Shown: positions 136 through 54,300 of the stretch, piece by piece | Numbering within the stretch: position 1 is the stretch's first letter | How the letters are laid out: the number at the start of each line of letters is the position of its first letter | Origin: a virus | Taxonomy: Duplodnaviria > Caudoviricetes | Length of the DNA stretch: 64,000 bases | Virus record (IMG/VR): IMGVR_UViG_3300032285_003957 | Location: 96,001-160,000 of that record | Direction: 5' to 3' (one strand) | Position numbers and translations under genes: made by a program | Notes under the pieces: model-generated | Database searches by the model: none | What the model saw: only the letters and a program-made list of their open reading frames with translations | Told to the model about the DNA's origin: nothing

Positions 136-1398
136 ATGGCTGAAAAATCAATTTTAGAACAAGCTTTACTTCAAATCGAAACACTTGAAGAAGCAGTTAA
201 AGCAAATGCAAAAGGTATAATTTCTTCAACTATGAAGAAAGAACTAAGCGAATTGCTTAAAGAATCTAAAGAAGAAGAGGATGAAAACTGGGCATCACAA
301 GAAGAGGAAGCTAAGGCTTCTGAAGAAGATGATGACGAAAGTGCTATTCCTGACGAAGAGGAAGAAAATGATATGGCAAGCGACGACGAGGAATCAGATG
401 ACGATGAGTCAGATGAAGAAGGAGAAGCTGCTGATGACACAGACCTCGATAATGAACCAAAAGGTATCGACTCATTAGATGCTGATTCTGACATGGATGC
501 TGACGCTGATATGGATGATTACAATGCTGATGATGAAGATGATACTGATGTTGACGCGGACAACGACGTTATGGACATGACAGGTGCTTCAGATGATGAA
601 GTTATGAAAGTGTTCAAAGCTATGAAACCAGAAGATGGTATCGTAGTTAAAAAAGACGGAGGTCATCTTAGCGTTAATGACGGTGACAATGAGTATATCA
701 TTAAACTTGATGATGAATCTACACCATCTCATGAAGAAGAATCTGAGCCGTTTACGGATCATACTTCAGATGAGGAAGAAGAAGATGAATCAAATTTATA
801 TGAAATAACATTGGATGAAGAAGACACTGACCCTACTACACCTGATACTAATTTAGGTGAAGAAGAGGATGAAGACGAAGATGATGACGATGACCACAAA
901 GTTCAAGCTGATGAAGCTGCAAGAACTAAGTCTAATCCTCATGGTAACAAAAACGGTATGCATCGTGCAGGTTTACCAAGTAAGAAAAAATACAAAGCAG
1001 GTTCAACAATCAACGAAGAGGTTGAAACTTTGAAGAAACAAAATGGTGAATATAAAAAAGCCTTAGTTCTTTTCAAAGACAAACTTAACGAAGTTGCAAT
1101 CTTCAATGCAAACTTAGCTTACTTCACTCGTTTGGTGACTGAGCATTCAACAACAAAACAAGAGAAATTGAACATATTAAAGAGATTTGATTCAGTTTCT
1201 ACTATGAATGAGTCTAAAAACTTATTCAAAACTATTGAAGCAGAATTAGGTTCTAAAAAACCAGTAACCGAGTCTGTTGTAAATAAAATCTCTGCAACTC
1301 CAACAACATCTTCTTCTCAAGAGACATTGACTGAGTCAAAAGCTTACGAAAATCCTCAATTCAAGAGAATGAAAGATTTGATGAGTAAAATAAAATAA
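136..1398 (+). CDS. Prohead core/scaffolding protein (T4 gp22-like)
   Basis: Directly upstream of the MCP; very D/E-rich middle region, coiled-coil-like ends. Confidence 0.75.
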   Translation: MAEKSILEQALLQIETLEEAVKANAKGIISSTMKKELSELLKESKEEEDENWASQEEEAKASEEDDDESAIPDEEEENDMASDDEESDDDESDEEGEAADDTDLDNEPKGIDSLDADSDMDADADMDDYNADDEDDTDVDADNDVMDMTGASDDEVMKVFKAMKPEDGIVVKKDGGHLSVNDGDNEYIIKLDDESTPSHEEESEPFTDHTSDEEEEDESNLYEITLDEEDTDPTTPDTNLGEEEDEDEDDDDDHKVQADEAARTKSNPHGNKNGMHRAGLPSKKKYKAGSTINEEVETLKKQNGEYKKALVLFKDKLNEVAIFNANLAYFTRLVTEHSTTKQEKLNILKRFDSVSTMNESKNLFKTIEAELGSKKPVTESVVNKISATPTTSSSQETLTESKAYENPQFKRMKDLMSKIK

Positions 1399-1430
1399 AA
1401 TAAAAATTAAAAAAAACAAAAACATACAAA

Positions 1431-3191
1431 ATGGGAGCATTATTAGAATCAGGTATGGTTGGTAACATCGGTCTTAAGCACTTACGTGTTATCAAAGAAG
1501 ATACCATCAAAAAATGGGATGACTTAGGATTTTTAGAAGGTCTTGAAGGTCACCAAAAAGATAACATCGCGCAATTATATGAAAACCAAGCGTCTTATTT
1601 AATCAACGAAGCTGCAACTGCAGATGCGTCTGGTTCTTTCGAGACTGTGGTATTCCCTATCATTCGTCGTGTATTCTCTAAATTATTAGCTAACGACTTA
1701 GTGTCTGTTCAAGCTATGAACTTACCAATTGGTAAATTATTCTACTTCATTCCTAAAATTCAGGAAAGAAATAGTGGAGACCATTACGGTCCTTACATGG
1801 GTGAAAACTCTAACTTTAGTGGAACAAACACATCTAAAGGTGCAGGATATCCTGATACAGCTAAAAGCCTTTACGATCGTTTCTATGAAAATAGTGATGA
1901 TGTAAACCAAGGTCTTTTTGATTACTCAAAAGGAGCTTTCACGCTTAACACTGCAACTGTTGCTGATATCGTTTCATTTGCTACTGGTACTGAAGCAAGT
2001 ATCAACCCAATCGCTACTGGTGTAACAGTAAATTCTGTAATATTGAAAGTTACTGGTTTCACAAGTGATGGTGCTGGTAAAATCGCAGGTCCAGACGGTA
2101 ACTTAATGGATACTGAAGAATTTTTAGCTTCTTTAACAGTTGCTTGTTCTCAAATTACAAATAGTAACACTGGTTACACTACAAACTTACCATTCAACAT
2201 TGTAACTCAAAAATATGGTAAAGGTATTGTAGAATACGGTAGCAAGCATACAGGTGCTTACACAACTGGTAAGTATTATGATATTTGTGATCAAACAGGA
2301 GTAATTTATCTTTCTGTAGATACACAATATTACGATGCAACTGGTTTCCACGGTTATTCAGTAGCAGGTTCAACTTTAGCGGTTGGTGATTTCACAGTAA
2401 CTTTCAGAAGTTATGACACATTAGAGTTTGAAGAAAACATCGGTGAAGTTTCTTTCGATTTACAATCAGTAACAGTTTCTGTAACTGAAAGAAAATTAAG
2501 AGCAAGCTGGTCTCCTGAATTAGCTCAAGACGTTAGTGCATTCCACAACATCGATGCTGAAGCTGAATTAACAGCTTTATTATCTGAGCAAATCGCAGCA
2601 GAAGTTGACCGTGAAATCTTACGTGACTTACGTAAAGGTGCAGCATGGACAGCTAAATGGGATTACAATGGATGGAAATACGGTGGAAACGGTAACTCAA
2701 CTTTACAAGGTTACACTCAAAAAGATTGGAACCAAACTTTGATTACTAAAATCAACCAAATTTCTGCTCAAATCCACAAAACAACATTAAGAGGTGGTGC
2801 TAACTGGATTGTTGTTTCTTCAGAAGTTTCTGCAGTATTCGACGATTTAGAATATTTCCACGTTTCTAATGCAGAGCCAGAGCAAGATCAATACAACATG
2901 GGTATCGAGAAAATCGGTTCAGTAGCAGGTCGCTACCAAGTTTACCGTGACCCTTACTTCCCAGCAGGTAAAATTTTGATTGGACATAAAGGAAAGTCAT
3001 TATTAGACGCAGGTTATATCTACGCTCCATATGTGCCTTTACAATTAACTCCAACAATGTATAACCCATTCAACTTTACTCCAGTAAAGGGAATCATGAC
3101 TCGTTACGCAAAGAAAATGGTGAACAACCGTTATTTCGGTGTAATCAACGTGAGTGGTTTACAAACTTTCGATATGAACACTTTAAGATAA
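1431..3191 (+). CDS. Major capsid protein (T4 gp23-like)
   Basis: gp23-family motifs VSVQAMNLPIGKLFY, RKLRASWSPELAQD, DAEAELTALLSEQIAAEVDREI, YAPYVPL, GIMTRY. Confidence 0.97.
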   Translation: MGALLESGMVGNIGLKHLRVIKEDTIKKWDDLGFLEGLEGHQKDNIAQLYENQASYLINEAATADASGSFETVVFPIIRRVFSKLLANDLVSVQAMNLPIGKLFYFIPKIQERNSGDHYGPYMGENSNFSGTNTSKGAGYPDTAKSLYDRFYENSDDVNQGLFDYSKGAFTLNTATVADIVSFATGTEASINPIATGVTVNSVILKVTGFTSDGAGKIAGPDGNLMDTEEFLASLTVACSQITNSNTGYTTNLPFNIVTQKYGKGIVEYGSKHTGAYTTGKYYDICDQTGVIYLSVDTQYYDATGFHGYSVAGSTLAVGDFTVTFRSYDTLEFEENIGEVSFDLQSVTVSVTERKLRASWSPELAQDVSAFHNIDAEAELTALLSEQIAAEVDREILRDLRKGAAWTAKWDYNGWKYGGNGNSTLQGYTQKDWNQTLITKINQISAQIHKTTLRGGANWIVVSSEVSAVFDDLEYFHVSNAEPEQDQYNMGIEKIGSVAGRYQVYRDPYFPAGKILIGHKGKSLLDAGYIYAPYVPLQLTPTMYNPFNFTPVKGIMTRYAKKMVNNRYFGVINVSGLQTFDMNTLR

Positions 3192-3207
3192 TCTTAATTG
3201 TCTATAG

Positions 3208-3240
3208 TAAAAAGCCCTCGAGAAATCGGGGGTTTTTTAT
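3208..3240 (+). terminator. Rho-independent terminator after MCP
   Basis: GCCCTCGA-GAAA-TCGGGGGT hairpin followed by a T tract. Confidence 0.85.
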
Positions 3241-3272
3241 TTTGGTTAATTGGGAATTCTTATGTATATTTG
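3241..3272 (+). promoter_or_regulatory. Bacteroidota-type housekeeping sigma promoter (-33 TTTG, -7 TATATTTG)
   Basis: TTTG 3241-3244, 20-nt spacer, TATATTTG 3265-3272; matches the TTTG-N19-21-TAnnTTTG consensus. Confidence 0.75.
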
Positions 3273-3276
3273 CACC

Positions 3277-3615
3277 ATGACCAAAAAGAACCTTAATAAT
3301 ATCATTAATTCGGGTCCAATTGACTACGAAAAATTGCGCTTAGATGTTTTGTCTCGTTTAATTGACGAAAGGGGTATTTCTTGTAAAAACAAAAAGGATG
3401 AGATGATAAAATATCTCAAAATGGATGATGAGGGGAAATATATTCGTGAAACCACTTATGAGAAGTGGGAAGGTCGTTTATTAGTGGGTATAGACCTTAA
3501 AAATACAGCTCATTTATTACAAATGGGTAAGTTAGTGGAAAAGAGAGAAGCGTCCTCTAAAGGCTTATATGCATCAGATAGAGTATACTTTATATCTAAT
3601 CAAAAACTAATATAG
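3277..3615 (+). CDS. Small protein with HeH/SAP-like helix-extension-helix motif (probable start ATG 3277)
   Basis: DYEKLRLDVLSRLIDERGISCKNKKDEMIKYL fits a SAP/HeH/Rho-N pattern. The promoter lies inside the longer 3250 ORF, which favours ATG 3277. Confidence 0.55.
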   Translation: MTKKNLNNIINSGPIDYEKLRLDVLSRLIDERGISCKNKKDEMIKYLKMDDEGKYIRETTYEKWEGRLLVGIDLKNTAHLLQMGKLVEKREASSKGLYASDRVYFISNQKLI

Positions 3616-3616
3616 A

Positions 3617-4366
3617 TTACCAAGTTCTACAAGCCCAATAACGAGGTTTCCAACGTGGACCTGGATTGTCACAGTTCATACGTGCTCTAAAGGATTTTCT
3701 TCTCTTAGGGTTATTTTTCTTGATAACCATTCTTTTACCGTGAGCAGATTTACCGCCAAAACCAAAGTTTACTTTAACGACTTTACCTTTATCGTTTTTA
3801 ACATATACTTTAAATTTCTTGATGTCACCTTGCATGATTTTACCTAATTGAACCTTTTTACCGTGGTATTCAGCTTCATTTAAAAAATCATTGGCTTCAA
3901 AATTTGTATTTTGAACTGAACCAGTTTCATCTTCATAAATCAACACAGGTGTTTGTTCGTTATATTCAAAAAGTCTTTCGAATTGTTCTTCGCTTATTTG
4001 TATAATTGTTCTTTTTTCCATACTTTCATTATAATGTGTCATCGTTGGTTTATTACCCTTACCAATTTTAGGGTGTTTTTTTTCAGCCCTTCTTTTTTGG
4101 TTGGTCATTGCTTTTTTTTCTTTTTTATCGTAAGAGGATGCGATTTTTGGAGTTTCTTTGGACACTTTCTTTGAAGGTCTACATTTTGGATATGATTTAC
4201 CGTCAGCGTCTTTCCTACCACATGGTGGGTTTTTACCGTTAACTTTTTTGCTAACGTCTACCCATTTTTCTTTAAACCACCTTCTAAGGTCTTCTTTTAA
4301 AACCTCACCTGACTCTATGGACTCTTCAATATATTTTAAATCTTCTTTTGAAACTATAATATTCAT
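3617..4366 (-). CDS. Modular basic protein, putative internal head protein
   Basis: Two Lys/Arg/Trp/Cys-rich modules (RRWFKEKWVD...PPCGR...YPKCRP and RRKSFRARMNC...RYWAC), each preceded by an LxE site; TATTTAT upstream. Confidence 0.6.
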   Translation of the reverse strand: MNIIVSKEDLKYIEESIESGEVLKEDLRRWFKEKWVDVSKKVNGKNPPCGRKDADGKSYPKCRPSKKVSKETPKIASSYDKKEKKAMTNQKRRAEKKHPKIGKGNKPTMTHYNESMEKRTIIQISEEQFERLFEYNEQTPVLIYEDETGSVQNTNFEANDFLNEAEYHGKKVQLGKIMQGDIKKFKVYVKNDKGKVVKVNFGFGGKSAHGKRMVIKKNNPKRRKSFRARMNCDNPGPRWKPRYWACRTW

Positions 4367-4379
4367 TTAAATAAATATT

Positions 4380-5147
4380 TTATAAACCCATATTATCTAT
4401 GAATTTTTTATGTGATTTTTTATACGATGATTCTTTTTCGTCATTTACGTCTTTAGTGTATTGCCAATTCCAATATAGATTTTTATTAGGTTTAAAACCA
4501 TAAAATTCATGGACTTTCATTTGAACTTTAGTAACTTCTTCTCCATTCCAATTTTGTCCTACACAAATGAAACCCGTTTCAATATTTTTTATGATATTAT
4601 CTTCACCTAAAGTGGTATGTCTGTTTTCAATCCAAGTAAGCCTTTCAATAAGATTTTGGTAATACATATTTGTTTGTCCCCACCTTATTGAACTGAAAAA
4701 TAAAACGGCGTCGCTTTCAAATAATTCTTTAGAAATCTTCCATAATTCATCCGTTTTATTGTTGAAACTGGCCCAACATCTGTGATAACCCGACGGATTT
4801 TTTTTATCATTGTCAAGTAATGCTTTTTTTACCCCACAACCATTACCATCTTTTCTTGATACATTACCCTCACAAGGAAATATTTTTAATTCGGAAACAT
4901 CAATCAAAACAGCTTTATCACCAAGTTCTTCTTTTAAATAAGTTGCAATGATTTTTGATTTTGGAATATCTTCATTTTTTTCATCCCAATTAAACCTGTT
5001 TGAACAGCTTAACAATAAAACCTTTTTATTGTTTTTCAATATGTCCAATGTAGCTTTTAGTTTTTTAGCGCCATTTTCTTGGACTAATTCTTCTAAAAGC
5101 ATCATTTTCCTAATTTTAGATACTTCTTCTTGTAGTATGTTGGACAT
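4380..5147 (-). CDS. Flavodoxin-fold NAD(P)H-dependent FMN reductase / iron-sulfur flavoprotein-like protein (start at MSNIL, 5147)
   Basis: VLLLSCSNR, PKS..IA, IFPCEG, SDAVLFFSSIRWG...LIERL and GFICVGQNWNGE match the FMN_red/Isf fold. The start was moved because the 5234 start overlaps the upstream gene. Confidence 0.7.
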   Translation of the reverse strand: MSNILQEEVSKIRKMMLLEELVQENGAKKLKATLDILKNNKKVLLLSCSNRFNWDEKNEDIPKSKIIATYLKEELGDKAVLIDVSELKIFPCEGNVSRKDGNGCGVKKALLDNDKKNPSGYHRCWASFNNKTDELWKISKELFESDAVLFFSSIRWGQTNMYYQNLIERLTWIENRHTTLGEDNIIKNIETGFICVGQNWNGEEVTKVQMKVHEFYGFKPNKNLYWNWQYTKDVNDEKESSYKKSHKKFIDNMGL

Positions 5148-5148
5148 A

Positions 5149-5796
5149 TTATTTACATTTTCTCCATCCACCGCCTTTTGCTTTGTAATTTTTTGCAGCC
5201 CAACCATTTGCGTAAGCGCTTGGGTATACATCAAATTTAGCTTTAGCAGCCGCTTTAGATGCAGCCCATTTTGCAGGGTCAGTAGGACAATTTTTACTTT
5301 CGTCTATTTCACCATGTGATTTATTTTTAGGTTTTTTACCTTTTTCTTTCATATGAATAGCGATAGCAGCTTGTTGTGCGGGATTTTTTGCTTCATTTGT
5401 TGGGACACAATTTGGAACCATTTTCCCGTTCTTTTTTTTACCGCCAACTTGTTTGTAACCATCCCAACATTTCTCATCAAGTTGTCCGTTTTCATTTAAA
5501 CTAAATTGATTCACATCTGCGGAAACAGATTGTTGATTATCGCTTCCTTTAGTTTCATTCATTAAAAAATCAAAAACTTGGTCGATATTTTCTTTAGCAC
5601 TTGAGATATGGTCGTCAGCCCAATCATGGCCATTTTCCAATATTTCATTAACCATGTTTTGGTCAAGTTTTAATAATAATTCACATTGTCTTTTTATTTG
5701 TTCTAAATTGCTAAAGAACATATAATTACCACCGTGTGATTCGTTTTCTTTAATAACATCTCTTAGATGTTTTTTGATTAATTCGTTTAAATTCAT
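5149..5796 (-). CDS. Modular protein with DUF5872-like C-terminus, putative internal head protein
   Basis: Modules KCWDGY...MVPNCVP, AKNPAQQAAIAI and KAKFDVYPSAYANGW...KGGGW, each following an xxE site. Confidence 0.6.
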   Translation of the reverse strand: MNLNELIKKHLRDVIKENESHGGNYMFFSNLEQIKRQCELLLKLDQNMVNEILENGHDWADDHISSAKENIDQVFDFLMNETKGSDNQQSVSADVNQFSLNENGQLDEKCWDGYKQVGGKKKNGKMVPNCVPTNEAKNPAQQAAIAIHMKEKGKKPKNKSHGEIDESKNCPTDPAKWAASKAAAKAKFDVYPSAYANGWAAKNYKAKGGGWRKCK

Positions 5797-5807
5797 GTAT
5801 ATAAATA

Positions 5808-7178
5808 TTATTTTTCTGAGACAATCTCAAATTTTATTAGTTCATTATGAAATATTTCTTCATCGTGTATTTTAGTTTTACACTCCAAATGATATTCTCT
5901 TGGGATATATATTTCAGTGTCAAAATAGAAGAAATTTTCGTTAGTTGAATCGACCATAGTCCAATCATGAACCATAACTTGGGTTCTACCTTCATAAATG
6001 AATATTCTATAATACGTTTCGCCAATAACCTGTGCTATAGGGTTCTCAATAGATTTTGTTGCGATTGTGATTTTTCTTTTTTCACCCTTTTTAATTTTCT
6101 CATTTAATTGAATACCATAGAATTGAATTACATAACGATTAGTGTCTCTTGGGTTTTCACCGACACTAAATAAAGAGGTATATGGTTTAGGTATGAATTT
6201 TTGACAAACGTCATTAATTGCAATTCCGTCTAAAACTAAGTTTTTCCAACAATCATAATAAAATCTCTTACCGTCACAAACAACACCATCAATACCAAAA
6301 TTCACCTTATATACACCTTTTCTAACTTTAACGGTTTCCAAGTCGTTTAGACCACTTATAACGTTACCTGAAGCGTCTTTAATATCGACCATAGGTAATT
6401 CATCTAAATCAAAAAAGTTTGTTCCTTTTGTAATGAAAAGATACAAATTTTGCATTTGTTTTTCGATAAAATTGTAACGATTATCGATAACCGTATCCTC
6501 AAAATAAGACTCAACAAATGGTTCAAAAAATGTTTGAGTATATTTGGTAAAGAATGCCACAGATTGGTCATTAGCAGGGTTTAAATCTTGGTAAATTACA
6601 GAAAAAGCAATACCTAATCCGTTATTAACATCACCCGATAATAATCCGTTAATATAGTCAGTTATATCAGCTTCTAAATTTTCATCACCATTATCAAAAT
6701 TCACTGTAGCTACTATGTCAGGGGAATCATTATAAACTCCTTCAATAGCCCATGTGTGTTCAGTATCTCGATAAAACCAGTTAGAAGGTCTAACGTCAAA
6801 TGTTAAATTACCCTTAGAGAAATCATATCCCCCATCCTCATAATCAAAACCAACACCTTCATTCCAAAATTCTGGAATTCTGAATATTATTAAATTAAAT
6901 GATGTTGCTCTATCTCTTCCCGTGCTTCTACCTTGACCCTTAAATCCTTCATCACCAAAAATGGTATTAGTCATTTTTAGAGTGTGTTTAGTGTTAGAAT
7001 CTATCACCAAATCACCAGAATTAATTCTATTTTGTAAATTTATAAGGTCAACTTTAAATAAAAACTTGGAAAACCCCGAACCATAGAAAATCTCGGTTGT
7101 TGGGTTTTTAGCTGTATTAGCTGAAGATTTCTTAATTATCGTATTGTTCTTCTCAAAATATGAACGGAAATATGACAT
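5808..7178 (-). CDS. Putative structural protein with DNRLRE/CBM96-like beta domain
   Basis: FNLIIFRIPEFWNEG...SNW...TW...DITDYING...NNGLGI...P pattern; TATTTAT upstream. Confidence 0.45.
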   Translation of the reverse strand: MSYFRSYFEKNNTIIKKSSANTAKNPTTEIFYGSGFSKFLFKVDLINLQNRINSGDLVIDSNTKHTLKMTNTIFGDEGFKGQGRSTGRDRATSFNLIIFRIPEFWNEGVGFDYEDGGYDFSKGNLTFDVRPSNWFYRDTEHTWAIEGVYNDSPDIVATVNFDNGDENLEADITDYINGLLSGDVNNGLGIAFSVIYQDLNPANDQSVAFFTKYTQTFFEPFVESYFEDTVIDNRYNFIEKQMQNLYLFITKGTNFFDLDELPMVDIKDASGNVISGLNDLETVKVRKGVYKVNFGIDGVVCDGKRFYYDCWKNLVLDGIAINDVCQKFIPKPYTSLFSVGENPRDTNRYVIQFYGIQLNEKIKKGEKRKITIATKSIENPIAQVIGETYYRIFIYEGRTQVMVHDWTMVDSTNENFFYFDTEIYIPREYHLECKTKIHDEEIFHNELIKFEIVSEK

Positions 7179-7201
7179 GTCTTTTATTATATAAATATCA
7201 A

Positions 7202-8731: not shown

Positions 8732-8931
8732 TAGTCAGTTTTTCTTTTGTCAATTTCTTCAATCACTTTATTATATAAATTTTCAATAGCGTCTAAATGT
8801 TTAGTCAAATCCAAAATCAATTCTTTTGTTTTTTGGAATTCTTCAAATAATTCATTTTCAACAGCAAATAAATCTTTGTTAGATTTATTCTCCACATCTT
8901 GCGTAATCTCAATAATTTTTTCTTTAGTCAT
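8731..8931 (-). CDS. Small coiled-coil hypothetical protein
   Basis: 66 aa, translationally coupled to neighbours, heptad pattern. Confidence 0.6.
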   Translation of the reverse strand: MTKEKIIEITQDVENKSNKDLFAVENELFEEFQKTKELILDLTKHLDAIENLYNKVIEEIDKRKTD

Positions 8932-18484: not shown

Positions 18485-19273
18485 TTAATAAAACATTAAA
18501 CGTTTTATTTTTAAAATTGATTCATTTAATTGATTACCATCTTCTTCTTCCTTTTCTGGTTCTTCAGGATTAACTGATGGCTTTTGTTCAGGTTTTGGTT
18601 GAGGTAAATTTTTATCAATTGGTCCAACAGGTTCAGCCGTAGGTTTTTCAGTTGGTGGAACTTGTATTGGTTCAGCAGTTGGCGGAACTTCAGCTGTTGG
18701 TTTAGCTTTAGTTGTTGGTGTTGGTAATTCTGCTGATGGAACTTCTGGTTTAACTTCAGGCTCAATTGCAGGTTTTTCTTTACTAACTTTAGTTGTCGGC
18801 TTAGTTGGTTCCACTTTTGGTTTAGCAACTTTCTTAGGTTTAACTTCTTGATTCCAATCAGTTTTAGCATATACAACTGACATGCTTTTATCACCGCTTT
18901 CATTATAACCTGGTCTTTTAACATCAAATGTTTCATCTGTAATTTGAACGTTATTTGTTCTTGATAGAATAAATGTCCTCCAATTAGTTTTACTAAATCC
19001 CTTTTTAGATGTTGAAGGTGGCTCAACCCAAGCTCTTAACACTAAGTTACCCTTTTTATTTAAACCCATCGCAACAGGTTCAACTTTAACTCTATAACCC
19101 GCTTTTACATTATTTTTTTTAGGTCTTCTTGGGCCCGTGTAATAAAATGTAATTTTCTTCCTATTTTTAATAGCATCATAGATAGGCTTATTGCGCGTTG
19201 TTTTCAATATATTTTTGTTATATTGTTCATCGCTCATTAGCTCAGTTAATAATATGTTAGATAATGATATCAT
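18485..19273 (-). CDS. WYL-domain protein without HTH, with Pro/Glu/Lys-rich tail
   Basis: AIKNRKKITFYY...RVKVEPVAMG...LRAW...WRTFILSRTNNVQITDETF matches the WYL Sm-like core. Confidence 0.7.
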   Translation of the reverse strand: MISLSNILLTELMSDEQYNKNILKTTRNKPIYDAIKNRKKITFYYTGPRRPKKNNVKAGYRVKVEPVAMGLNKKGNLVLRAWVEPPSTSKKGFSKTNWRTFILSRTNNVQITDETFDVKRPGYNESGDKSMSVVYAKTDWNQEVKPKKVAKPKVEPTKPTTKVSKEKPAIEPEVKPEVPSAELPTPTTKAKPTAEVPPTAEPIQVPPTEKPTAEPVGPIDKNLPQPKPEQKPSVNPEEPEKEEEDGNQLNESILKIKRLMFY

Positions 19274-19993: not shown

Positions 19994-20485
19994 TTATAAC
20001 ATTAATTTTTTTATTTTTTCAACTTCTTCAAATAATTTCATAGATGAAAGAGCTGATATTGACGTTTTATGTGAATTGCTTTTCATTAAATTAACAGGAA
20101 TAGCAAAGCTTTGTTTTTTGGTATGCCTTTTTAAATGACTATTTTTTCTGCTACCTTCTCCTGCAATATTGTCAGCTTGCATTTTAGAATCTTTACGATT
20201 ACTAACTAAATCTCTTTCACCTTTTAAAAATTGGTTAGCCCATTTTTCCATTAAATCGCCACCCACCAAATCATACTTTTGTCTTTCATTAATTTTATCC
20301 ATATTTTTTAAATCGTGGATAATTCTTTTTAATTGACCGTATTTTACTTTTTTATCGGTAAGAATTTTTTGAGCACGATGAGCTCCATCAACATAATTCC
20401 CGTTTAAACCAACCAAGGTATGATTGATTTTATCCAAGATATTTTGAGGAACATCAAAAATTCGGCTTTTTAATTCTTTATTCAT
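19994..20485 (-). CDS. Hypothetical protein with C-terminal LFEEVEKIKKLML tag
   Basis: 163 aa ORF, coupled to neighbours. Confidence 0.6.
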   Translation of the reverse strand: MNKELKSRIFDVPQNILDKINHTLVGLNGNYVDGAHRAQKILTDKKVKYGQLKRIIHDLKNMDKINERQKYDLVGGDLMEKWANQFLKGERDLVSNRKDSKMQADNIAGEGSRKNSHLKRHTKKQSFAIPVNLMKSNSHKTSISALSSMKLFEEVEKIKKLML

Positions 20486-47268: not shown

Positions 47269-47594
47269 TGAGTAGAAGTTATGTAGATAGGTATCAGTAT
47301 TTTATGAACGATGGTGAATATAAAATCGTTCCAGGTATTGATATACCATTTAAAGGAACCGACCGATATACCCAATACAAAAAAGGTAGAGACAGATTAG
47401 ATAGGATTTCCCAAGAAAACTACGGGTCACCTTTATTCGGATGGTTAATATTAATTGCTAACCCAAGGGTTGGTAGTATTGAGTTTGAAATTCCTGATAA
47501 TTCGTATTTAAGAATACCATATCCATTAATTAGTTCATTACAAGACTATAAAAATCAGGTGGATTTGTATAAATTGTATTATGGCGAACAGTAA
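47268..47594 (+). CDS. LysM-like baseplate protein (gp53/P2 gpX-like)
   Basis: DRLDRISQENYGSPLFGWLILIANP...IPDNSYLRIP. Confidence 0.75.
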   Translation: MSRSYVDRYQYFMNDGEYKIVPGIDIPFKGTDRYTQYKKGRDRLDRISQENYGSPLFGWLILIANPRVGSIEFEIPDNSYLRIPYPLISSLQDYKNQVDLYKLYYGEQ

Positions 47595-50500
47595 TATTCC
47601 GGGTAATGAAAATATACTTGTTAAAGTAGACCAAAACAACATCGTATTTATTGACCCCAATAGCGTTGTTGAGAATGGTGATGTTAAAACAAGAAATGTC
47701 CAACAAGAAAATCTTGTTATCTATGTTAATTTAGAAGCGGATTTAATTGAAAGAACTGTATTGGCAGTTAACAATACTGAAGAACCTTCAGCAAAATCCT
47801 CATTGTTATCTGTTGCTAAGGGAACGTTAAACATGTTAAAAAATAACAATGGTAATGATTTTGATACAACATGGACAAATTCATTTATTGAGAATACAAA
47901 AACTACAACAAACAATGGTAAAACAACCAAAACATTTGTTGATAGTATGGCAGATTCATCTGCACAATCATTCGGTATTGAAAGTGTTAATATAACAATT
48001 GCAGGTGCTAACTTTATACCACAAATCAACATCAACTTTATTGATGTTAGAGGGAAGACATTATTTGAGTCACCAAAGAACTCACCATATTCAGCATTTT
48101 TCCATTTACCTTGGCCAATATTTTATTTAACGGTTAAGGGGTTTTATGGTAAAGCAATTAGATACAGATTACACTTAGTTGATTTTTCATCATCATTTAA
48201 TGGAACAACGGGTAACTTTGATATCAACACAACATTTGTTGGTTCAACGTATGCGTATTTGAATGATATCCCATTAGACGGTGCGTTCACCGCTCCATAT
48301 CTTTATTCAATTGAAAAAGATAGAAAATCAACAACAGTTGAAAAACAAGTAACAAACAATGGTAAAACGACAACCGAAAAAACAACAACAACAAAAATTA
48401 ACATCTCTAAGAATTCCAAAGGATACCAAATGTTACATTCGGTATATCAGGAATATATTCAAAAGGGGTTACTACCTAAAAATTTTAGAACAATCACATT
48501 AAGCGAATTGGTGAATAAAGCCAAAAGCTTGGATATGGTTATTGAACAATCAATTTTTAAAGGTGTTGATGCTAAAGTTTTTGCAGGTATAAAAGAATAT
48601 GAGGATACGTTAAATGATTTTGAAACATCATTAAATGCGTGGAAATCTTCTTATACCGATACCAAACCAATAACTGTAGGTAATAAAGTTTATTACCCAT
48701 TAAAAGCAAGTCTTAACGGAAAAACTGATTCTGTTTTTAACACAAGCGACGCAAATTCGTTGGTTAGTATTTTAAAATCTTATCCTGAAAAATTATCTAA
48801 ATCTGCAATTTTCATTGATAAATTTGTTAAAGATAAAACTAACGCTTCATTTAAAGGATTGTCGTTCGTTTATAAAAATTATATACAAGATGTTGGGAAA
48901 TATACATTAGAAGATAGTCCAAATTTCTTGGTTAACATCAGTGGAGACGAAACAAATCCAACAAGTATATTAAATGACTTGTATAGAATGTTCGCATCGT
49001 TTGTTGAACAAAGAGATAAGTTTCAGAAAAAAATTGAAGAATTAATCAATAACGTAATTAGAGATTCTAAAACAGGTTTAGGATTTGAACCAACGGTAAG
49101 AAACGTTATTGGTGTTTTATTAGCAAATGCGGATGTGTATGTTAGATTATTAAAAGATGTTCATACAAGAGCATTTAACGCAGGTGCAAAACGAAAAGAT
49201 AAAGTTACTCCGATGTGTAATGAAACAATCGGTAAAAATGAAGTTTATCCTTGGCCTGAAATCACAAAAGCCTCATCAGGTAGTAAACAAAAAGTAATTG
49301 TATATCCGGGTGACGAAAGTATGTATAGAACATTGGGTTCAAATGACCCATCATTATGGCCAGAGGTTGAGTTTGTTGAAAACTATATTGCTGTATCAAC
49401 AAAAAGAGTTGACCCAAAAGCAGACAAAGAAGGTGGTGTTAATAAAGTGGATTTTGTTTTTGAACAAGATGAAAAGTATTCTAAAACAAAAAGAATATCT
49501 ACATTATTTCAATTGTGGGATGACGCACCTTATGTTAATAAAACCTTAAGTTCGGTATTATTTGAAATTTGGGAAAGAGCAAGATATGCTACTTTTTATG
49601 ATTCATATGATTTAAAGGTTGTCGAAGAAATTGCAAAAATAGAATCGGAAAATTTAAAAGAATGTATAACTGAAGATTTGGACATTATTGAAATGTTAAA
49701 ATCGGTATTAACAGTTAATAAAGATGATAACGCTGCAGGCATTACCGATTCATATCATAAATTTTTAGCATATTTGGATAGTTTTTCACCATTTGAAAGA
49801 GCACCTTATCTAAAAGATTTTTTACCAACAGTTCCATATGTTAAGGATATTATAACACAGTCATTTACATTAGAACAATATGGTGATGCAACGATTTTTG
49901 TAAATAACGATAAGGATTATCCAAAATTAAGCACGTTTATAAAATCATATGAACCTGAAAAATACAGAGCAGACATATATCCATTCAAGTCACCAACTTA
50001 TTTGTCATATCTTAATTTAACTAAGTTTGATAAGGTTAAACAATTAAGAATGTCCAACATATTGAATGTGAACACTGAAGATGGTTTAATTAGCACATCG
50101 AACAATTTAAAATGGGTTAAAAGCGGATTTGAGGATAATTTATTTAAAAACCAAATTACATTCCCTAACCAAACAAAGGTTCATATTTTAAACACACCAT
50201 ATTTTCATAAAGCATTACTTTATGATGTATCAAGACCTGTATCATATGCAAAATATGTTGGTTCAGCTTATTTGTTATTGAACTCATTACCATTTAAGGA
50301 CTTATCTGACACAATGATTGATGAGACAACAAAGAGTGAGGTGATGTTATCAACAATGTTTAAAGAAGCTGGTGCTTCTCATACAATACCATATCATTTA
50401 ATTTGTAAGTGGGGTTCAATATATCATAGATATAAAAACTATGTTTTAGACGGCGGTGATATTTTATCAGGATTTACAACAAGTAATATGATAAACCCAA

Positions 50501-53367
50501 TAAGCGGTTCAACGGCTTTTGATGACAATGCGGGTTTAACATATGTATTGTATGGCAAGAACGTATCAGATGATACCAATGATATTGGTATTCATCCATT
50601 TTATGATGATGTTTTTTATCAAGTTGTAAATGGTTATAGTTTCTTTGACCCACATGCGGGTAGTGTTGAATACAACGAAAAAATTGATAATGGAATTGTT
50701 AAAAACAGAATCAGAACAAAAGTAGGAACAAGGTATTACACCAATTATATTCAAAATTTTAATATTGACGCTACGGATGCTTTTTATACGTTACTACCAT
50801 GTGATGGCGCAAATACGCCTGATACAAATTTAAATGTAAACAAAGATTTAGCATTAGATGCTCAAAATGGTTATAGAATATTATGGTATACTGGTGAAAC
50901 GGCTAATGTAGATTATTCTAACAAAAAAATACCAAGCCCTTATGAATATATGTCAACACTTGTAACAGGTGGCACAAGAAACGGTGATAATATCTATGGG
51001 TTTGCTGACAACTACAGAAAAGTTATTGATTTAATTGCGACGTTTAGTCCTGAAATATTAGACAAGTTTGAAGAAACATTTTTAGAATTTGCATCTGAAA
51101 ATTTAAACTTAGAAATACCTTATGTTAGATATCCAAATGTCAGCATGAGTAAATTCCAAGATTTATTGAAATCCATTGTTACGGTAGGTAAGTCTAATAT
51201 TACTTCAACAGAAACGGATGCGGTTATTAAAGAGTTGAGTGAAAAACAAGGTGCAAGACTTAAAACAATGACCACAGCTATGCTTGCACAAAATAGTTTA
51301 ATGAAACTTACAATATCAAATCCAAAAGATATTGATATTAACATTTTAGGTGGATTTGTTGGCTTTGAAAAAATTAGAACATCATATGGTCCATATCAGG
51401 AATACAAATACGAAGACAACAAAAAATATATCGATTTATACATCGGGGAAGAATTAGACATAACTAAAAAGTATAAAAGATTCTTCATGGATAATAACAT
51501 TGACCTCAATGAACAAAATGTTAGAGCGCTAAGACCATTGGTTTATATATATGCAGGTGGGATGGCACATAACTTTAATACCCCTGAGGGATTTAAAGTT
51601 TATTTGACGGAAAATATTATCCTTCCTTATACAACAAGAAATAGATTATTCATCGATTTAATTATTAGAGGATTTAAAGATTTGCAAAATACAAACGGCG
51701 GAAGTCCGTTAAGTTTATACAAAGGTTATAATACCGAAATCAACAAAATAAACATGTATAGTGATTTTAAATCATTTAACGATAAATGGGTTGCAGGTAA
51801 CTCAATCGGTCAGCGTTTATTATTAGAAGAATTTTTGTTTATCGATAGAGCAAACAGAGATATTGGTGATAACGCTTATGTTGATATTGGTAAAATCATT
51901 TCACTTGACGACTCCCAAAATACTAAAACATCAATATATAGTGCAATAGGGACACTCATTGAAGGTTCTAACTTTATATTCAGAGGATTACCTGCGTATG
52001 TAAATTTCTACGGCTCAAATTTATCTACCAAATCAAAATTGGAAGGTTCTAAAAAAACAGCAAGAAATATTTTTGGAACATTCTTGGAAGTAGATTACCA
52101 AGAAGCAAGTCCAAAGATGATTATTCAATACGTTGGCCCAACATCAAAACATCTTGATATGGAATATATTCAAGACAAGATGAAATTTAAAAATGATAGC
52201 GGTAATTTATTTGACATGAACGCAAGTCCATTAATCATTACCAATAACGATATTCTAAAAACAGGAGATTTAAATAAATCAAATAAGGTTGTTGCGTTTG
52301 AAATTAGTATTGGTGACCAAGCAAATGGTTTGTTTAAAGGAATAAAACTTGACCAAGCAACGTTAAGAAATTCATATGCATCACAAATTGTAAATGAAAA
52401 CATGGGTCGTTCTGAAACTGGTTCGGGTGTTTATCAAGTTGATATCGGGTTGTTTGACATATACAGACAAGTATCCTATACTTGCGAAGTAACAATGATG
52501 GGATGTGCAATGATACAACCGTCCATGTATTTCTATTTGAAAAATGTTCCAATGTTTAAGGGTTCATATTGGATTACGGAAGTAAAACATAACATTAGAA
52601 ATAATGGTATGGAAACATCCTTTACGGGATATAGAATGCCATATGCTGCATTACCTGACCCTAAGGATTCAATCATGTTAGCTTATAGAGCATTATTCGA
52701 ATCAATAACTAATAAAGCAATAGCGTTAGTTAAATCTGAAAATACAAACATTGCAAGCAAATCAAATGTTGCGACTCAAAACGATAAAAATATTATAGAC
52801 CAAAAAGGTAAACAAAAAACAATCAACGAAGGTGACCCTAAAGCATTACCTAAAAACTTTGTTGAAACCAAAATTAATAAATCCGATTTATACAATGAGG
52901 TTATACCTTATAATGGTTACGAAGGTGAAAAGCTTATTCAATTAGTTAAACTTGAAGATGGTGTTGAATGGTTAAAAGCAGTTGCATGCACATTGGGTGG
53001 TAAAAATAATTCACTTGACGATAATACAGCATTCTATATTGCCACTTTCGCTTCAGGAACTCAAACAACATGGAAAAATTTGAAAGGATTTACAGATACA
53101 GCCAGTATGTATACAACAAAATTCAAACAAGACCATTTGAATGAATTACAAATAACCAATTTACAAAACAAGAGCACAGTATTTTTAAACCCGTATAATA
53201 ATAAAACATTGAATGTAACACATTCATTATGTCCTAATTGTCCAATCCCTAACGGACCAATTGGTATAGGGCCAAATAGCAACAAGTATGGTATTGCATT
53301 ATCTAAAGCAGCTATGTCTCGTTTAGGGTTATACGAAGGTCAAACAGTTTATTTCAGGTTTAAATAG
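47581..53367 (+). CDS. Very large baseplate hub protein (gp27/VgrG-like, 1928 aa)
   Basis: FGIESVNI...ININFIDVRG near the N-terminus; YTCEVTMMGCAMIQP...GSYWITEVKHNI...TSFTG near the C-terminus. Confidence 0.65.
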   Translation: MANSNIPGNENILVKVDQNNIVFIDPNSVVENGDVKTRNVQQENLVIYVNLEADLIERTVLAVNNTEEPSAKSSLLSVAKGTLNMLKNNNGNDFDTTWTNSFIENTKTTTNNGKTTKTFVDSMADSSAQSFGIESVNITIAGANFIPQININFIDVRGKTLFESPKNSPYSAFFHLPWPIFYLTVKGFYGKAIRYRLHLVDFSSSFNGTTGNFDINTTFVGSTYAYLNDIPLDGAFTAPYLYSIEKDRKSTTVEKQVTNNGKTTTEKTTTTKINISKNSKGYQMLHSVYQEYIQKGLLPKNFRTITLSELVNKAKSLDMVIEQSIFKGVDAKVFAGIKEYEDTLNDFETSLNAWKSSYTDTKPITVGNKVYYPLKASLNGKTDSVFNTSDANSLVSILKSYPEKLSKSAIFIDKFVKDKTNASFKGLSFVYKNYIQDVGKYTLEDSPNFLVNISGDETNPTSILNDLYRMFASFVEQRDKFQKKIEELINNVIRDSKTGLGFEPTVRNVIGVLLANADVYVRLLKDVHTRAFNAGAKRKDKVTPMCNETIGKNEVYPWPEITKASSGSKQKVIVYPGDESMYRTLGSNDPSLWPEVEFVENYIAVSTKRVDPKADKEGGVNKVDFVFEQDEKYSKTKRISTLFQLWDDAPYVNKTLSSVLFEIWERARYATFYDSYDLKVVEEIAKIESENLKECITEDLDIIEMLKSVLTVNKDDNAAGITDSYHKFLAYLDSFSPFERAPYLKDFLPTVPYVKDIITQSFTLEQYGDATIFVNNDKDYPKLSTFIKSYEPEKYRADIYPFKSPTYLSYLNLTKFDKVKQLRMSNILNVNTEDGLISTSNNLKWVKSGFEDNLFKNQITFPNQTKVHILNTPYFHKALLYDVSRPVSYAKYVGSAYLLLNSLPFKDLSDTMIDETTKSEVMLSTMFKEAGASHTIPYHLICKWGSIYHRYKNYVLDGGDILSGFTTSNMINPISGSTAFDDNAGLTYVLYGKNVSDDTNDIGIHPFYDDVFYQVVNGYSFFDPHAGSVEYNEKIDNGIVKNRIRTKVGTRYYTNYIQNFNIDATDAFYTLLPCDGANTPDTNLNVNKDLALDAQNGYRILWYTGETANVDYSNKKIPSPYEYMSTLVTGGTRNGDNIYGFADNYRKVIDLIATFSPEILDKFEETFLEFASENLNLEIPYVRYPNVSMSKFQDLLKSIVTVGKSNITSTETDAVIKELSEKQGARLKTMTTAMLAQNSLMKLTISNPKDIDINILGGFVGFEKIRTSYGPYQEYKYEDNKKYIDLYIGEELDITKKYKRFFMDNNIDLNEQNVRALRPLVYIYAGGMAHNFNTPEGFKVYLTENIILPYTTRNRLFIDLIIRGFKDLQNTNGGSPLSLYKGYNTEINKINMYSDFKSFNDKWVAGNSIGQRLLLEEFLFIDRANRDIGDNAYVDIGKIISLDDSQNTKTSIYSAIGTLIEGSNFIFRGLPAYVNFYGSNLSTKSKLEGSKKTARNIFGTFLEVDYQEASPKMIIQYVGPTSKHLDMEYIQDKMKFKNDSGNLFDMNASPLIITNNDILKTGDLNKSNKVVAFEISIGDQANGLFKGIKLDQATLRNSYASQIVNENMGRSETGSGVYQVDIGLFDIYRQVSYTCEVTMMGCAMIQPSMYFYLKNVPMFKGSYWITEVKHNIRNNGMETSFTGYRMPYAALPDPKDSIMLAYRALFESITNKAIALVKSENTNIASKSNVATQNDKNIIDQKGKQKTINEGDPKALPKNFVETKINKSDLYNEVIPYNGYEGEKLIQLVKLEDGVEWLKAVACTLGGKNNSLDDNTAFYIATFASGTQTTWKNLKGFTDTASMYTTKFKQDHLNELQITNLQNKSTVFLNPYNNKTLNVTHSLCPNCPIPNGPIGIGPNSNKYGIALSKAAMSRLGLYEGQTVYFRFK

Positions 53368-53412
53368 AAATAATAAGATTATTGGGATATTTATATTAAT
53401 AAAAAGAATATT

Positions 53413-53616
53413 ATGGAAAATAATAGATTAAACAATGCAATGGATCAATTCTTACAACCAAAACAAGTTAAGAGAGTATCTCAAGACGGTATGGAAAGAG
53501 AAGAGTGTGATTTAATGACAGGCGAATGTTATACAATCAGAGAAAAAGACGGTATAGTTGAAAGAATAAATAAAAGATACATTACCAACGACGGTAGACA
53601 ATTATTACAAGATTAA
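53413..53616 (+). CDS. Small hypothetical protein
   Basis: 67 aa; TATTTAT upstream. Confidence 0.6.
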   Translation: MENNRLNNAMDQFLQPKQVKRVSQDGMEREECDLMTGECYTIREKDGIVERINKRYITNDGRQLLQD

Positions 53617-53619
53617 GCT

Positions 53620-54300
53620 ATGTTAGAACAAAAATTACAAGAAGAATTAAATCGTTATAAAGCCATTAACAAATATGGTAAAAAAATGATTATGGAACAA
53701 GACGCACCGCCAGATGCAGCAGCAGGCGCAGCGCCTCCAGACCCTTCAGCGGCGGCAGCACCGGACCCATCGGCAGGAGCAGCGGCAGCACCTGACCCTT
53801 CAGCAGCACCCGCACCAGGTGGTGCAACTCCCCCTCCTGCAGCAGGCGCAGCAGCACCGGCAGCGGATAAAACTGAAGAATTAGATATTACTGATTTAGT
53901 TGATATGGTGAAAAGTATTAAAAACCATCAAGAACAATCAGGAAATGGTGATTCTGAAGCAACAAGCAAAATGGATGACGTATTCTCTAAATTAAACGAT
54001 TTAGAAAGTAAGTTAGGTGTTATGGACCAATTGATTAATAAAATTGACCAATTAGGTTCAGAAGTTAAGCAAATGAAACCAAAAACAGAACAAGAGAAAT
54101 TAGAGATGCGTTCATTGGATTCATATCCGTTTAACCAAAATCCTCAGCAATTCTTTGCACAAAAGCAACCTGAAATGCAAGCAACAGGTAAAAACGAATA
54201 TGTGTTAACTAAGAATGATGTTAATGATTACTCAAATAATATGATAAGAGACACCTTCGGTGGTGAAAATAATACTAACGAAGATGAATTTAAGTTCTAA
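53620..54300 (+). CDS. Hypothetical protein with Pro/Ala-rich repeats and coiled coil (putative head protein)
   Basis: KLQEELNRYKAIN N-terminal tag; (A)AAPDPS x3. Confidence 0.6.
   Translation: MLEQKLQEELNRYKAINKYGKKMIMEQDAPPDAAAGAAPPDPSAAAAPDPSAGAAAAPDPSAAPAPGGATPPPAAGAAAPAADKTEELDITDLVDMVKSIKNHQEQSGNGDSEATSKMDDVFSKLNDLESKLGVMDQLINKIDQLGSEVKQMKPKTEQEKLEMRSLDSYPFNQNPQQFFAQKQPEMQATGKNEYVLTKNDVNDYSNNMIRDTFGGENNTNEDEFKF

What the first reader, a model, noticed from the sequence alone, without database searches (positions are those of the whole stretch)
1340..53680. Shared short helical tag (LxEE-x-x-K/R-I-K/R-x-L/M-M) on unrelated proteins: candidate capsid-targeting system
Similar amphipathic 12-15 aa motifs sit at the termini of unrelated proteins: ILQEEVSKIRKMML (N-term, flavodoxin-like 5147), LNESILKIKRLMFY (C-term, WYL protein), LFEEVEKIKKLML (C-term, 19994 ORF) and LQEELNRYKAINKY (N-term, 53620). 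Looser versions end the scaffold (QFKRMKDLMSKIK) and the upstream gene (KMKKLMGKL). A second motif class, I-x-(I/V)-S-x-E-x-(F/L), occurs twice in ORF 3617-4366. Most carry an LxE site like the T4 gp21 protease consensus. By analogy with the T4 capsid-targeting sequence, this may be a portable scaffold-binding tag that works at either terminus, loads enzymes and regulators into the prohead, and allows co-injection with the DNA. This is my best candidate for an undescribed system here.
Basis: partly seen in the sequence, partly recalled or inferred. Interest (0 to 1): 0.78.

Follow-up and report, generated by a model that had tools for sequence, protein, structure and literature searches.

The report
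Portable end-tag on phage proteins
An uncultured freshwater T4-like phage and its relatives put the same 12-residue helix at the very start or very end of many unrelated proteins; the helix shares its core with the tails of the head scaffold and head protease, so it is most likely an address label that loads proteins into the young capsid, though packaging has not been shown.

Summary
The motif L-x-E-x-[IVL]-x-[KR]-[IMF]-K-x-L-[MI] sits within 9 residues of a terminus in all eight best profile hits of this 234-kb T4-like phage genome. It is conserved in orthologues while the adjoining linkers drift. In IMG/VR, 74 of 81 matches to its back-translated pattern were terminal, on at least 21 unrelated protein families. 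The same pattern in cellular genomes gave 11 of 80, almost all chance.

A regex built only from cargo tags hits three further proteins in the proteome. All three hits are C-terminal, and two are the prohead protease and the scaffold. Tagged genes sit behind the same late-type promoter motif as the structural genes. N-terminal tags are followed by [LIVM]-x-E in 19 of 20 cases, which fits the T4-type head protease encoded here. AlphaFold gives domain, disordered linker, lone terminal helix.

Capsid targeting is therefore the best reading (about 0.55), but all support is circumstantial. The likely partner is whatever the scaffold tail binds, not necessarily the scaffold.

This scan has already noted the same kind of tag on other DNA, including relatives of this phage.

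The parts
1..51 (+). C-terminal end of the prohead protease (genome 95368-96051). The tail reads KMKKLMGKLDNFLGK and carries the tag core K-M-K-K-L-M.
   Evidence: Peptidase_S77 at 5.4e-23 and phrog_207. The tail [DN][KR]M[KR][KN]LM[GS]xL[DN]xFL[SG]K is conserved in about 45 distinct relatives. It ranks 6th in the tag profile at 6.7 bits and is hit by the tags-only regex.
136..1398 (+). Scaffold (gp22 position, directly upstream of the capsid gene). The C-terminal helix QFKRMKDLMSKIK lies at 1357-1395.
   Evidence: The tail YENPQF[KL]RMKDLMSKIK is near invariant although the whole proteins are only 50-60% identical. Thirty other clade members read YENPQFxRIKEMMxKIK. It is hit by the tags-only regex but not by the full profile.
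1431..3191 (+). Major capsid protein (gp23 family) and candidate receptor of the tag. Residues 1-108 are almost invariant. The last [LI]-x-E before the conserved core is I-N-E60|A61 (nt 1602-1610).
   Evidence: Pfam Gp23 at 4.4e-74, a 40-sequence alignment, and a match to mature T4 gp23* starting near query residue 63. The cleavage site itself is inferred.
5088..5147 (-). N-terminal class-1 tag MSNILQEEVSKIRKMMLLEE of ORF 4380-5147 (255 aa, weakly flavodoxin-like).
   Evidence: Orthologues start MNLQENIQRIRQMMISEE or MNLEENIQRIKQMMISEE. The gene follows ORF 5149-5796, which has the late-type motif at -11.
18488..18532 (-). C-terminal class-1 tag QLNESILKIKRLMFY of the WYL-domain protein (18485-19273).
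   Evidence: The tag is kept in 80 of 80 loci while the acidic/Pro-rich linker varies. AlphaFold gives a domain at 1-150, disorder at 159-243 and a helix at 245-261. The fold matches the WYL domains of BrxR, DriD, PafBC and CapW.
19997..20038 (-). C-terminal class-1 tag KLFEEVEKIKKLML of ORF 19994-20485 (163 aa, no known fold).
   Evidence: The tag is kept in 80 of 80 loci. AlphaFold gives a helical domain at 1-108, disorder at 134-148 and a lone helix at 151-162. No PDB fold match was found.
53620..53700 (+). Diverged N-terminal variant MLEQKLQEELNRYKAINKYGKKMIMEQ of ORF 53620-54300, followed by a Pro/Ala-rich linker.
   Evidence: It scores 5.9 bits and ranks 7th. The motif L-x-E-E-L-x-R-[YF]-x-x-I-N-[KR]-Y...[LI]-M-E-Q is conserved in four relatives.
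4319..4366 (-). Class-2 N-terminal motif MNIIVSKEDLKYIEES of ORF 3617-4366.
   Evidence: The class-2 regex gives 9 hits in the proteome against 0.19 in shuffles, and 7 of them lie at residues 2-5.
3962..4015 (-). Second, internal class-2 motif KRTIIQISEEQFERLFEY in ORF 3617-4366. It marks the start of a module that is a separate gene in some relatives.
   Evidence: Relatives L106 and L149 have separate proteins that begin at this motif.
5740..5796 (-). N-terminus MNLNELIKKHLRDVIKENE of ORF 5149-5796. It is a weak tag-like helix, and relatives carry a clear class-2 motif at the same place.
   Evidence: It scores 2.4 bits. Orthologues begin MKKIIISEDQLKKIIES or MKKIILTESQLKKIIQME.

Best explanation
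The 12-residue amphipathic helix L-x-E-x-[IVL]-x-[KR]-[IMF]-K-x-L-[MI] is a portable prohead-targeting tag.

Proposed mechanism:
1. Late in infection, tagged proteins are made together with the head proteins.
2. The tag sits on a flexible linker at either end of the cargo. It docks on the site that also receives the similar C-terminal helices of the scaffold and the prohead protease. That site is most likely the inner face or the N-terminal prodomain of the major capsid protein.
3. The cargo is thereby enclosed as the shell grows.
4. The T4-type protease then cuts at [L/I/V/M]-x-E next to the tag: after an N-terminal tag, or at the L-x-E that opens a C-terminal tag. This frees the cargo inside the head, to leave with the DNA.

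Shown here: the tag exists, is terminal, is conserved at the protein level, is modular, is restricted to the clade, shares its core with the scaffold and protease tails, sits in late-type promoter context, and is a lone helix on a disordered linker.

Inferred only: binding, the partner, cleavage, packaging and injection.
For: 1. Terminal and non-random. All top-8 profile hits lie within 9 residues of an end. In IMG/VR, 74 of 81 pattern matches are terminal, against 11 of 80 in cellular genomes.
2. Purifying selection on the peptide. The tag is kept in 80 of 80 orthologue loci of two families while the linkers vary, and the codons vary synonymously.
3. Modularity. At least 21 unrelated families carry the tag, including M23+VanY hydrolases, GNAT, M78 peptidase, PAP2, DeoC and WYL. 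Homologues also swap class-1 for class-2 or for no tag.
4. Link to head-core proteins. A regex from cargo tags alone hits only three further proteins. All three hits are C-terminal, and two are the protease and the scaffold. Both tails are near invariant. A scaffold variant reads R-I-K-E-M-M in 30 contigs.
5. A Peptidase_S77 protease is encoded, and [LIVM]-x-E follows 19 of 20 N-terminal tags against a 12-14% background.
6. The late-type motif TATTTAT precedes the portal, protease, scaffold, sheath and tube genes and also the tagged genes or their operons.
7. AlphaFold shows domain, disordered linker and terminal helix in both proteins folded.
8. Clade restriction. Five of six tag-bearing contigs with a capsid-gene match have a capsid protein 63-69% identical to this one. 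A Flavobacterium T4-like phage with about 40% capsid identity has no tags.
9. Precedent. T-even internal proteins share only a capsid targeting sequence (PMC3012670), and how core proteins are localised is still called 'mysterious' (PMC9958956).
Against:
- The scaffold tail shares only six residues with the tag and scores about 0 bits with the full profile. The protease scores only 6.7 bits.
- The L-x-E at the start of the motif is equally conserved in N-terminal tags, where cutting there would not release the cargo.
- The WYL protein and ORF 19994 are core genes in an operon with glycosyltransferase-like genes and a putative gp55-like late sigma factor gene, not in the head module.
- One tagged protein (696 aa) has a transmembrane segment.
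- The cargo tags do not follow the scaffold switch between RMKDLM and RIKEMM in the few contigs that hold both regions.
Confidence: 0.55

Rival explanations
1. The tag is a docking helix for a different common hub that is not the capsid, for example a phage replication or transcription platform, a chaperone, or a host protein. On this view it gathers late accessory enzymes in one place in the cell.
For: Terminal position on long flexible linkers fits any short linear docking motif. The WYL protein and ORF 19994 sit in an operon with non-head genes. The scaffold similarity fails the full-profile test.
Against: It does not explain why the only extra regex hits include the C-termini of both the prohead protease and the scaffold. 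It also does not explain the protease-type site after N-terminal tags. The putative gp55-like late sigma factor here ends in a different motif. The tag is absent from cellular genomes, so a widely conserved host receptor is unlikely.
Confidence: 0.2
2. The helix is a self-association (coiled-coil) element that merely makes each protein oligomeric, as scaffold proteins are. There is no common receptor.
For: Hydrophobic residues fall at positions 1, 5, 8 and 11/12, a narrow a/d-type stripe flanked by Glu and Lys/Arg. Scaffolds are coiled-coil proteins.
Against: Twelve residues are short for a stable coiled coil. Near-identical sequence on more than 20 unrelated families and strict restriction to the extreme termini are not needed for self-association. 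The regular [LIVM]-x-E after N-terminal tags is left unexplained.
Confidence: 0.1
3. The helix is a membrane-targeting amphipathic helix, like the terminal helices of MinD or FtsA (comparison from general knowledge). It would hold envelope-acting proteins at the inner membrane.
For: Several cargos act on the envelope: M23+VanY hydrolases and PAP2. One is a 696-aa protein with a transmembrane segment and a peptidoglycan-binding-like region.
Against: The motif has invariant Glu residues, a net charge near zero and a narrow hydrophobic stripe. WYL, GNAT, aldolase and M78 cargos have no envelope role. The shared core with the scaffold and protease tails is unexplained.
Confidence: 0.05
4. The similarity is chance, arising from low-complexity K/E/I/L-rich sequence in an AT-rich genome.
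For: The genome is 31-35% G+C and its proteins are rich in K, E, I, L and N.
Against: Residue shuffles give 0.35 terminal hits against 5 observed, and 0 of 1000 shuffles reach 5. An equally AT-rich 160-kb phage has none. The tag is conserved in orthologues with synonymous codon change. The same DNA pattern is 91% terminal in IMG/VR and 14% terminal in cellular genomes.
Confidence: 0.02

Closest known systems
Capsid targeting sequence (CTS) of phage T4 internal proteins IPII/IPIII (Mullaney and Black 1996, as cited in PMC9958956 and PMC3012670)
   Same: Both are a short shared terminal peptide on otherwise unrelated, variable proteins of a T4-type phage that encodes a gp21-type protease. In both, an (L/I)-x-E site follows the N-terminal tag. 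The cargo includes enzymes and candidate anti-defence proteins.
   Different: There is no sequence similarity to the T4 CTS (recalled from memory as MKTYQEFIAE). The tag here is 12 rather than about 10 residues long and is used at the C-terminus as often as at the N-terminus. It sits on long disordered linkers. Its core is shared with the scaffold and protease tails, whereas the T4 review says the CTS is not found in other core proteins. A second, interchangeable tag class exists. Packaging has not been shown here.
C-terminal capsid-binding helices of scaffolding proteins and their mimics (phage 80alpha scaffold and SaPI1 CpmB; P22 scaffold). From general knowledge, not re-read here.
   Same: An unrelated protein carries a copy of the scaffold's C-terminal helix and so reaches the same site on the capsid protein.
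   Different: In those systems the mimic changes capsid size. Here many enzymes and regulators carry the helix, and binding to the capsid protein is only inferred.
C-terminal targeting region of the HK97 prohead protease, and encapsulin cargo-loading peptides. From general knowledge.
   Same: Both use a short terminal peptide on a flexible linker that tethers a protease or cargo to the inside of an HK97-fold shell. Encapsulin tags occur at either terminus.
   Different: The sequences and shell lineages differ. Encapsulin cargo is not released by a protease or injected.

Membership tests
T4-type capsid targeting sequence system | Phage has a T4-type head: gp23-family capsid protein, gp21-family (Peptidase_S77) prohead protease, and a scaffold gene between them | tested here: met
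   Pfam Gp23 at 4.4e-74. Peptidase_S77 at 5.4e-23 and phrog_207 at 2.3e-40. The gene order is protease, 420-aa scaffold, capsid protein.
T4-type capsid targeting sequence system | The same short terminal peptide on otherwise unrelated proteins | tested here: met
   Eight proteins in this genome and at least 21 unrelated families in relatives.
T4-type capsid targeting sequence system | Sequence homology to the T4 CTS, with N-terminal position only | tested here: not met
   The consensus L-x-E-x-I-x-R-I-K-x-L-M is unrelated in sequence, and 50 of the 74 terminal matches are C-terminal.
T4-type capsid targeting sequence system | Tag bounded by a prohead-protease site (L/I)-x-E and removed on maturation | tested here: inconclusive
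   [LIVM]-x-E follows 19 of 20 N-terminal tags (p about 1e-16), and L-x-E opens every C-terminal tag. Cleavage itself cannot be tested with these tools.
T4-type capsid targeting sequence system | Tagged proteins are found inside proheads or virions, and the tag carries foreign proteins in | not testable with these tools
   No cultured relative was found: the best capsid-protein match among isolate phages covers only 59% of the query at 39.6% identity, and the best full-length matches are 29-34% identical.
Scaffold C-terminal helix mimicry (80alpha scaffold / CpmB type) | Tag resembles the scaffold's own conserved C-terminal helix | tested here: inconclusive
   The six-residue core [KR][IFM][KN]xL[MIL], taken from cargo tags only, hits the scaffold and protease C-termini. 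A scaffold variant reads RIKEMM in 30 contigs. The 13-residue profile gives the scaffold tail about 0 bits.
WYL-domain proteins (for the cargo at 18485-19273) | WYL (Sm-like beta-barrel) fold | tested here: met
   Foldseek matches BrxR 7qfz (8.8e-4, prob 1.00), DriD, PafBC and CapW over 91-102 residues. The Pfam WYL score of 20.5 bits lies just under the 21.8-bit cut-off. No winged-helix DNA-binding domain was matched.

The most novel reading that the evidence does not exclude
A whole clade of abundant uncultured freshwater T4-like phages uses a capsid-loading code that works at either terminus. The scaffold, the head protease and dozens of exchangeable cargo proteins all carry the same helix core and dock on one site of the capsid protein. 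The cargos include a stand-alone WYL domain, peptidoglycan hydrolases, GNAT and M78 enzymes. A second, interchangeable N-terminal tag class (I-x-I-[ST]-E-S-Q-[LF]) serves the same purpose. The injected proteome could then be read directly from sequence, and the unknown rule that localises T4-type core proteins would become testable.
Probability: 0.45. Interest if true: 0.75.

Novelty: new variant of a known kind. Interest (0 to 1): 0.6.

Why it matters
A recent T4 head review states that how proteins are localised to the T4-type scaffolding core is still 'mysterious' (PMC9958956). In this clade the scaffold, the protease and many cargo candidates share one short helix core. That points to a single docking rule which peptide-binding, cryo-EM or tag-GFP packaging experiments could test.

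If the rule holds, the tag lists from sequence alone the proteins that these widespread lake phages carry into their hosts. The candidates include a WYL domain of the kind that regulates BREX and CBASS defence systems. The tag would also be a compact label, usable at either end, for loading foreign proteins into T4-type capsids.

The finding is less fresh within this scan. Similar tags, including this one in related genomes, have already been noted.

Tried and rejected
- The full 13-residue tag profile does not detect the scaffold tail, in either the RMKDLM or the RIKEMM form. Only the six-residue core is shared.
- tblastn of ORF 19994 and of a 26-aa tag peptide against isolate phages gave nothing. 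No cultured relative with proteomics was found.
- A literature search for the peptide strings gave only unrelated hits.
- The T4 late promoter TATAAATA is not enriched upstream of genes: 6 of 294. Its reverse complement, TATTTATA, is the enriched motif instead.
- A DNA-level explanation (a recombination or regulatory site) is rejected. Codons vary synonymously while the residues are kept.
- The fold of ORF 19994 has no PDB match.
- Pfam and PHROGs are silent on most cargos.
- No co-variation was seen between the scaffold variant (RMKDLM or RIKEMM) and the cargo tags, which keep L-M. This rests on five contigs that appear both and, compared by eye only.


Full report
**Setting.** The window is bases 96001-160000 of a 234,116-bp virus record. 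It encodes a gp23-family major capsid protein at 1431-3191 (Pfam Gp23, 4.4e-74). A 420-aa scaffold-position gene lies directly upstream at 136-1398. Before that comes a Peptidase_S77 prohead protease that ends at window 51. The nearest isolate phages have capsid proteins only 29-40% identical to this one. IMG/VR, in contrast, holds many close relatives.

**The observation.** I built a profile from the tags of orthologues of the two C-tagged proteins. In a 294-protein proteome it ranks the following on top:
- ORF 19994.
- The WYL protein.
- The protein at genome 22693-23397, which starts MNLQENIHRIKTVMGL.
- The protein at genome 200998-202473, which ends LNEEIKKMKTL.
- The protein at genome 21310-21630, which starts MKANLNEELSRIQGMM.
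- The prohead protease tail.
- ORF 53620.
- The protein at genome 53674-55764, which starts MESIKRIKLIMGY.

All eight hits lie within 9 residues of an end. ORF 4380-5147 joins them once its real start is used. The consensus is L-x-E-x-[IVL]-x-[KR]-[IMF]-K-x-L-[MI].

**Conservation.**
- In 80 IMG/VR loci, the orthologues of ORF 19994 and of the WYL protein all keep the tag, while the acidic or Pro-rich linker in front of it changes freely.
- Orthologues of ORF 4380 keep the N-terminal tag.
- Across 82 distinct tag DNA sequences the codons vary synonymously (TTA/CTT/CTA/TTG, ATT/ATA/ATC, AAA/AAG, AGA/CGA). Selection therefore acts on the peptide, not on the DNA.

**Breadth and controls.**
Of 81 matches, 50 lay 0-6 residues before a stop codon, 24 lay right after a start Met, and 7 were classed internal. 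Two of those seven (L193 and L244) sit 6 residues into the reading frame and may be N-terminal tags.
- The matches fall on at least 21 unrelated protein families. These include M23+VanY peptidoglycan hydrolases, GNAT acetyltransferases, an M78/IrrE-like peptidase, PAP2 and a DeoC-type aldolase.
- The same pattern in 185,579 cellular genomes gave 80 readable matches. Forty were in short frames and 29 were internal. Only 11 were loosely terminal, and one or two of those look like mis-binned phage contigs.
- A 160-kb Flavobacterium T4-like phage of similar composition has no hit above 4.4 bits.
- Nine tag-bearing contigs were searched for this capsid gene. Five have a capsid protein 63-69% identical to this one, one has a distant T4-type capsid protein (35%), and three had no match; two of those three are short fragments.

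The tag is therefore a trait of this phage clade.

**Modularity.** The protein at genome 52044-52304 begins with the class-2 motif MKLVISEKQFKLIL. Its homologue in L202 begins with the class-1 tag MLHEEIQKIKKLM on the same downstream domain. An M78-like protein is tagged in L166 but untagged here.

Class 2 (I-x-[IL]-[ST]-E-S-Q-[LF]...) is itself strongly N-terminal. It gives 9 hits against 0.19 in shuffles, and 7 of them lie at residues 2-5. The second copy inside ORF 3617-4366 marks a module that is a separate gene in some relatives.

**Link to the head core.**
- The scaffold tail YENPQF[KL]RMKDLMSKIK and the protease tail ...[DN][KR]M[KR][KN]LM[GS]xL[DN]xFL[SG]K are almost invariant across relatives whose scaffolds are only 50-60% identical overall.
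- I took positions 7-12 from cargo tags alone to make the regex [KR][IFM][KN].L[MIL]. It hits five proteins in the proteome: the two training proteins, the protease, the scaffold, and one further protein (genome 27777-29570). All five hits lie within 9 residues of the C-terminus. Shuffles give 0.35 terminal hits, and none of 1000 reaches five.
- Following a lead from another first-stage note, I found 30 clade contigs whose scaffold ends YENPQFxRIKEMMxKIK, which carries the tag's R-I-K core.
- Against this, the full 13-residue profile gives the scaffold tail about 0 bits, and the protease reaches only 6.7 bits. The resemblance is limited to the second half of the helix.

**Timing.** TATTTAT(A) is enriched 11-fold upstream of genes: 68 of 294. 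It lies 11-13 nt or 20-48 nt before the ATG of the portal, protease, scaffold, sheath, tube and baseplate genes. It also precedes the tagged genes at genome 21310, 22693 and 200998, and the operons that hold WYL/ORF 19994, ORF 5149/4380 and ORF 53620. I read it as the late promoter element, but this is inference.

**Protease sites.**
- Nineteen of 20 distinct N-terminal tags are followed within a few residues by [LIVM]-x-E, often L/I-N-E, and then by a polar or Ala/Pro-rich linker. The background frequency is 12-14% (p about 1e-16).
- C-terminal tags begin with L-x-E.
- The capsid protein's near-invariant N-terminal 108 residues contain L-I-N-E60|A61 just before the region that aligns with mature T4 gp23*.
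- These features fit the (L/I)-x-E specificity of T4 gp21 (general knowledge). No cleavage has been observed.

**Architecture.** AlphaFold2 with 38-sequence alignments gave the following.
- ORF 19994: a confident helical domain at 1-108, disorder at 134-148, and a lone helix at 151-162.
- WYL protein: a domain at 1-150, about 90 disordered residues, and a helix at 245-261.
- The WYL fold matches BrxR, DriD, PafBC and CapW. ORF 19994 has no PDB match.

**Interpretation.** The most economical reading is a prohead-targeting tag that copies the docking helix of the scaffold and protease tails. In other phages such tails bind the capsid protein, so the receptor is more likely the capsid protein than the scaffold.

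T4 offers the precedent of diverse internal proteins that share only a capsid targeting sequence (PMC3012670). A recent review says the localisation mechanism of core proteins remains 'mysterious', and that the CTS is not found in other core proteins (PMC9958956).

This case differs from T4 in five ways: the tag works at either end, it sits on long linkers, its core is shared with the scaffold and protease, there are two interchangeable tag classes, and the cargo set is much larger. I give this reading about 0.55. Every functional step (binding, cleavage, packaging, injection) is inferred, and the complex predictor was not available. The rivals are a non-capsid hub, self-association and membrane anchoring. 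They explain the terminal helix but not the protease and scaffold hits or the flanking protease-type sites.

**Earlier notes of this scan.** Similar shared tags read as capsid-targeting signals have been reported on many other phage genomes. First-stage readers of related genomes noted this same helix, the class-2 TESQ motif, the TATTTATA motif and the LINE|A site. These are unchecked AI notes and I did not count them as evidence. I tested the RIKEMM scaffold claim and confirmed it.

Noticed in passing
whole genome; in the window e.g. 20478-21254/21308 divergent pair, 21688, 24633, 30647, 33785, 40517, 42487: TATTTAT(A), the reverse complement of the T4 late promoter TATAAATA, is enriched 11-fold upstream of genes (68 of 294). 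It has two spacing classes, 11-13 nt and 20-48 nt before the ATG. The short class would give nearly leaderless late mRNAs.
   Followed up: partly
genome 30533-30685 (outside the window; locus L450:4533-4685): A 50-aa protein that consists only of a class-2 tag at its N-terminus (MAKIKITESQLERLVKEN) and a class-1-like helix at its C-terminus (INEAVKKIMADFKRFK). It could be an adaptor or a mini-scaffold.
   Followed up: no
genome 53674-55764 (locus L082:1674-3764): An N-tagged 696-aa protein with one transmembrane segment, Thr/Ser/Gly-rich tracts and a peptidoglycan-binding-like Cys-containing region. It has no Pfam or PHROG hit and resembles an ejection or trans-envelope protein.
   Followed up: partly
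genome 52044-52304 (L082:44-304) and homologues L182, L202, L218: A small protein family with repeated Y-P-[ST]-V-T-K-W-E-S-G-x-T-R-G-x-A-N peptides behind a tag and an Ala/Pro/Ser linker. The tag class differs between homologues. The function is unknown.
   Followed up: no
window 3617-5796 (minus strand), just downstream of the capsid gene: A mosaic block of small genes with DUF5872 pieces and basic Cys-containing ends (YPSAYANGWAAKNYKAKGGGWRKCK; NPGPRWKPRYWACRTW). Modules are fused, split or absent in different relatives. ORF 4380 is present in only 11 of 80 loci.
   Followed up: partly
window 1431-1754 (capsid protein residues 1-108): The N-terminal 108 residues of the capsid protein are almost invariant across 40 relatives that are otherwise 63-81% identical. 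This suggests a strongly constrained prodomain or interaction surface.
   Followed up: partly
window 18485-19273: A stand-alone WYL-fold protein without a recognisable DNA-binding domain, conserved in all 80 relatives sampled. It carries a linker of about 90 residues with ELPQPKP-like repeats before the tag.
   Followed up: partly
genome 27777-29570 (L450:1777-3570): A 597-aa protein with no family hit, a late-type motif at -12, and a C-terminus (YFKFKRLIISK) that matches the six-residue tag core. It may be a further tagged protein.
   Followed up: no
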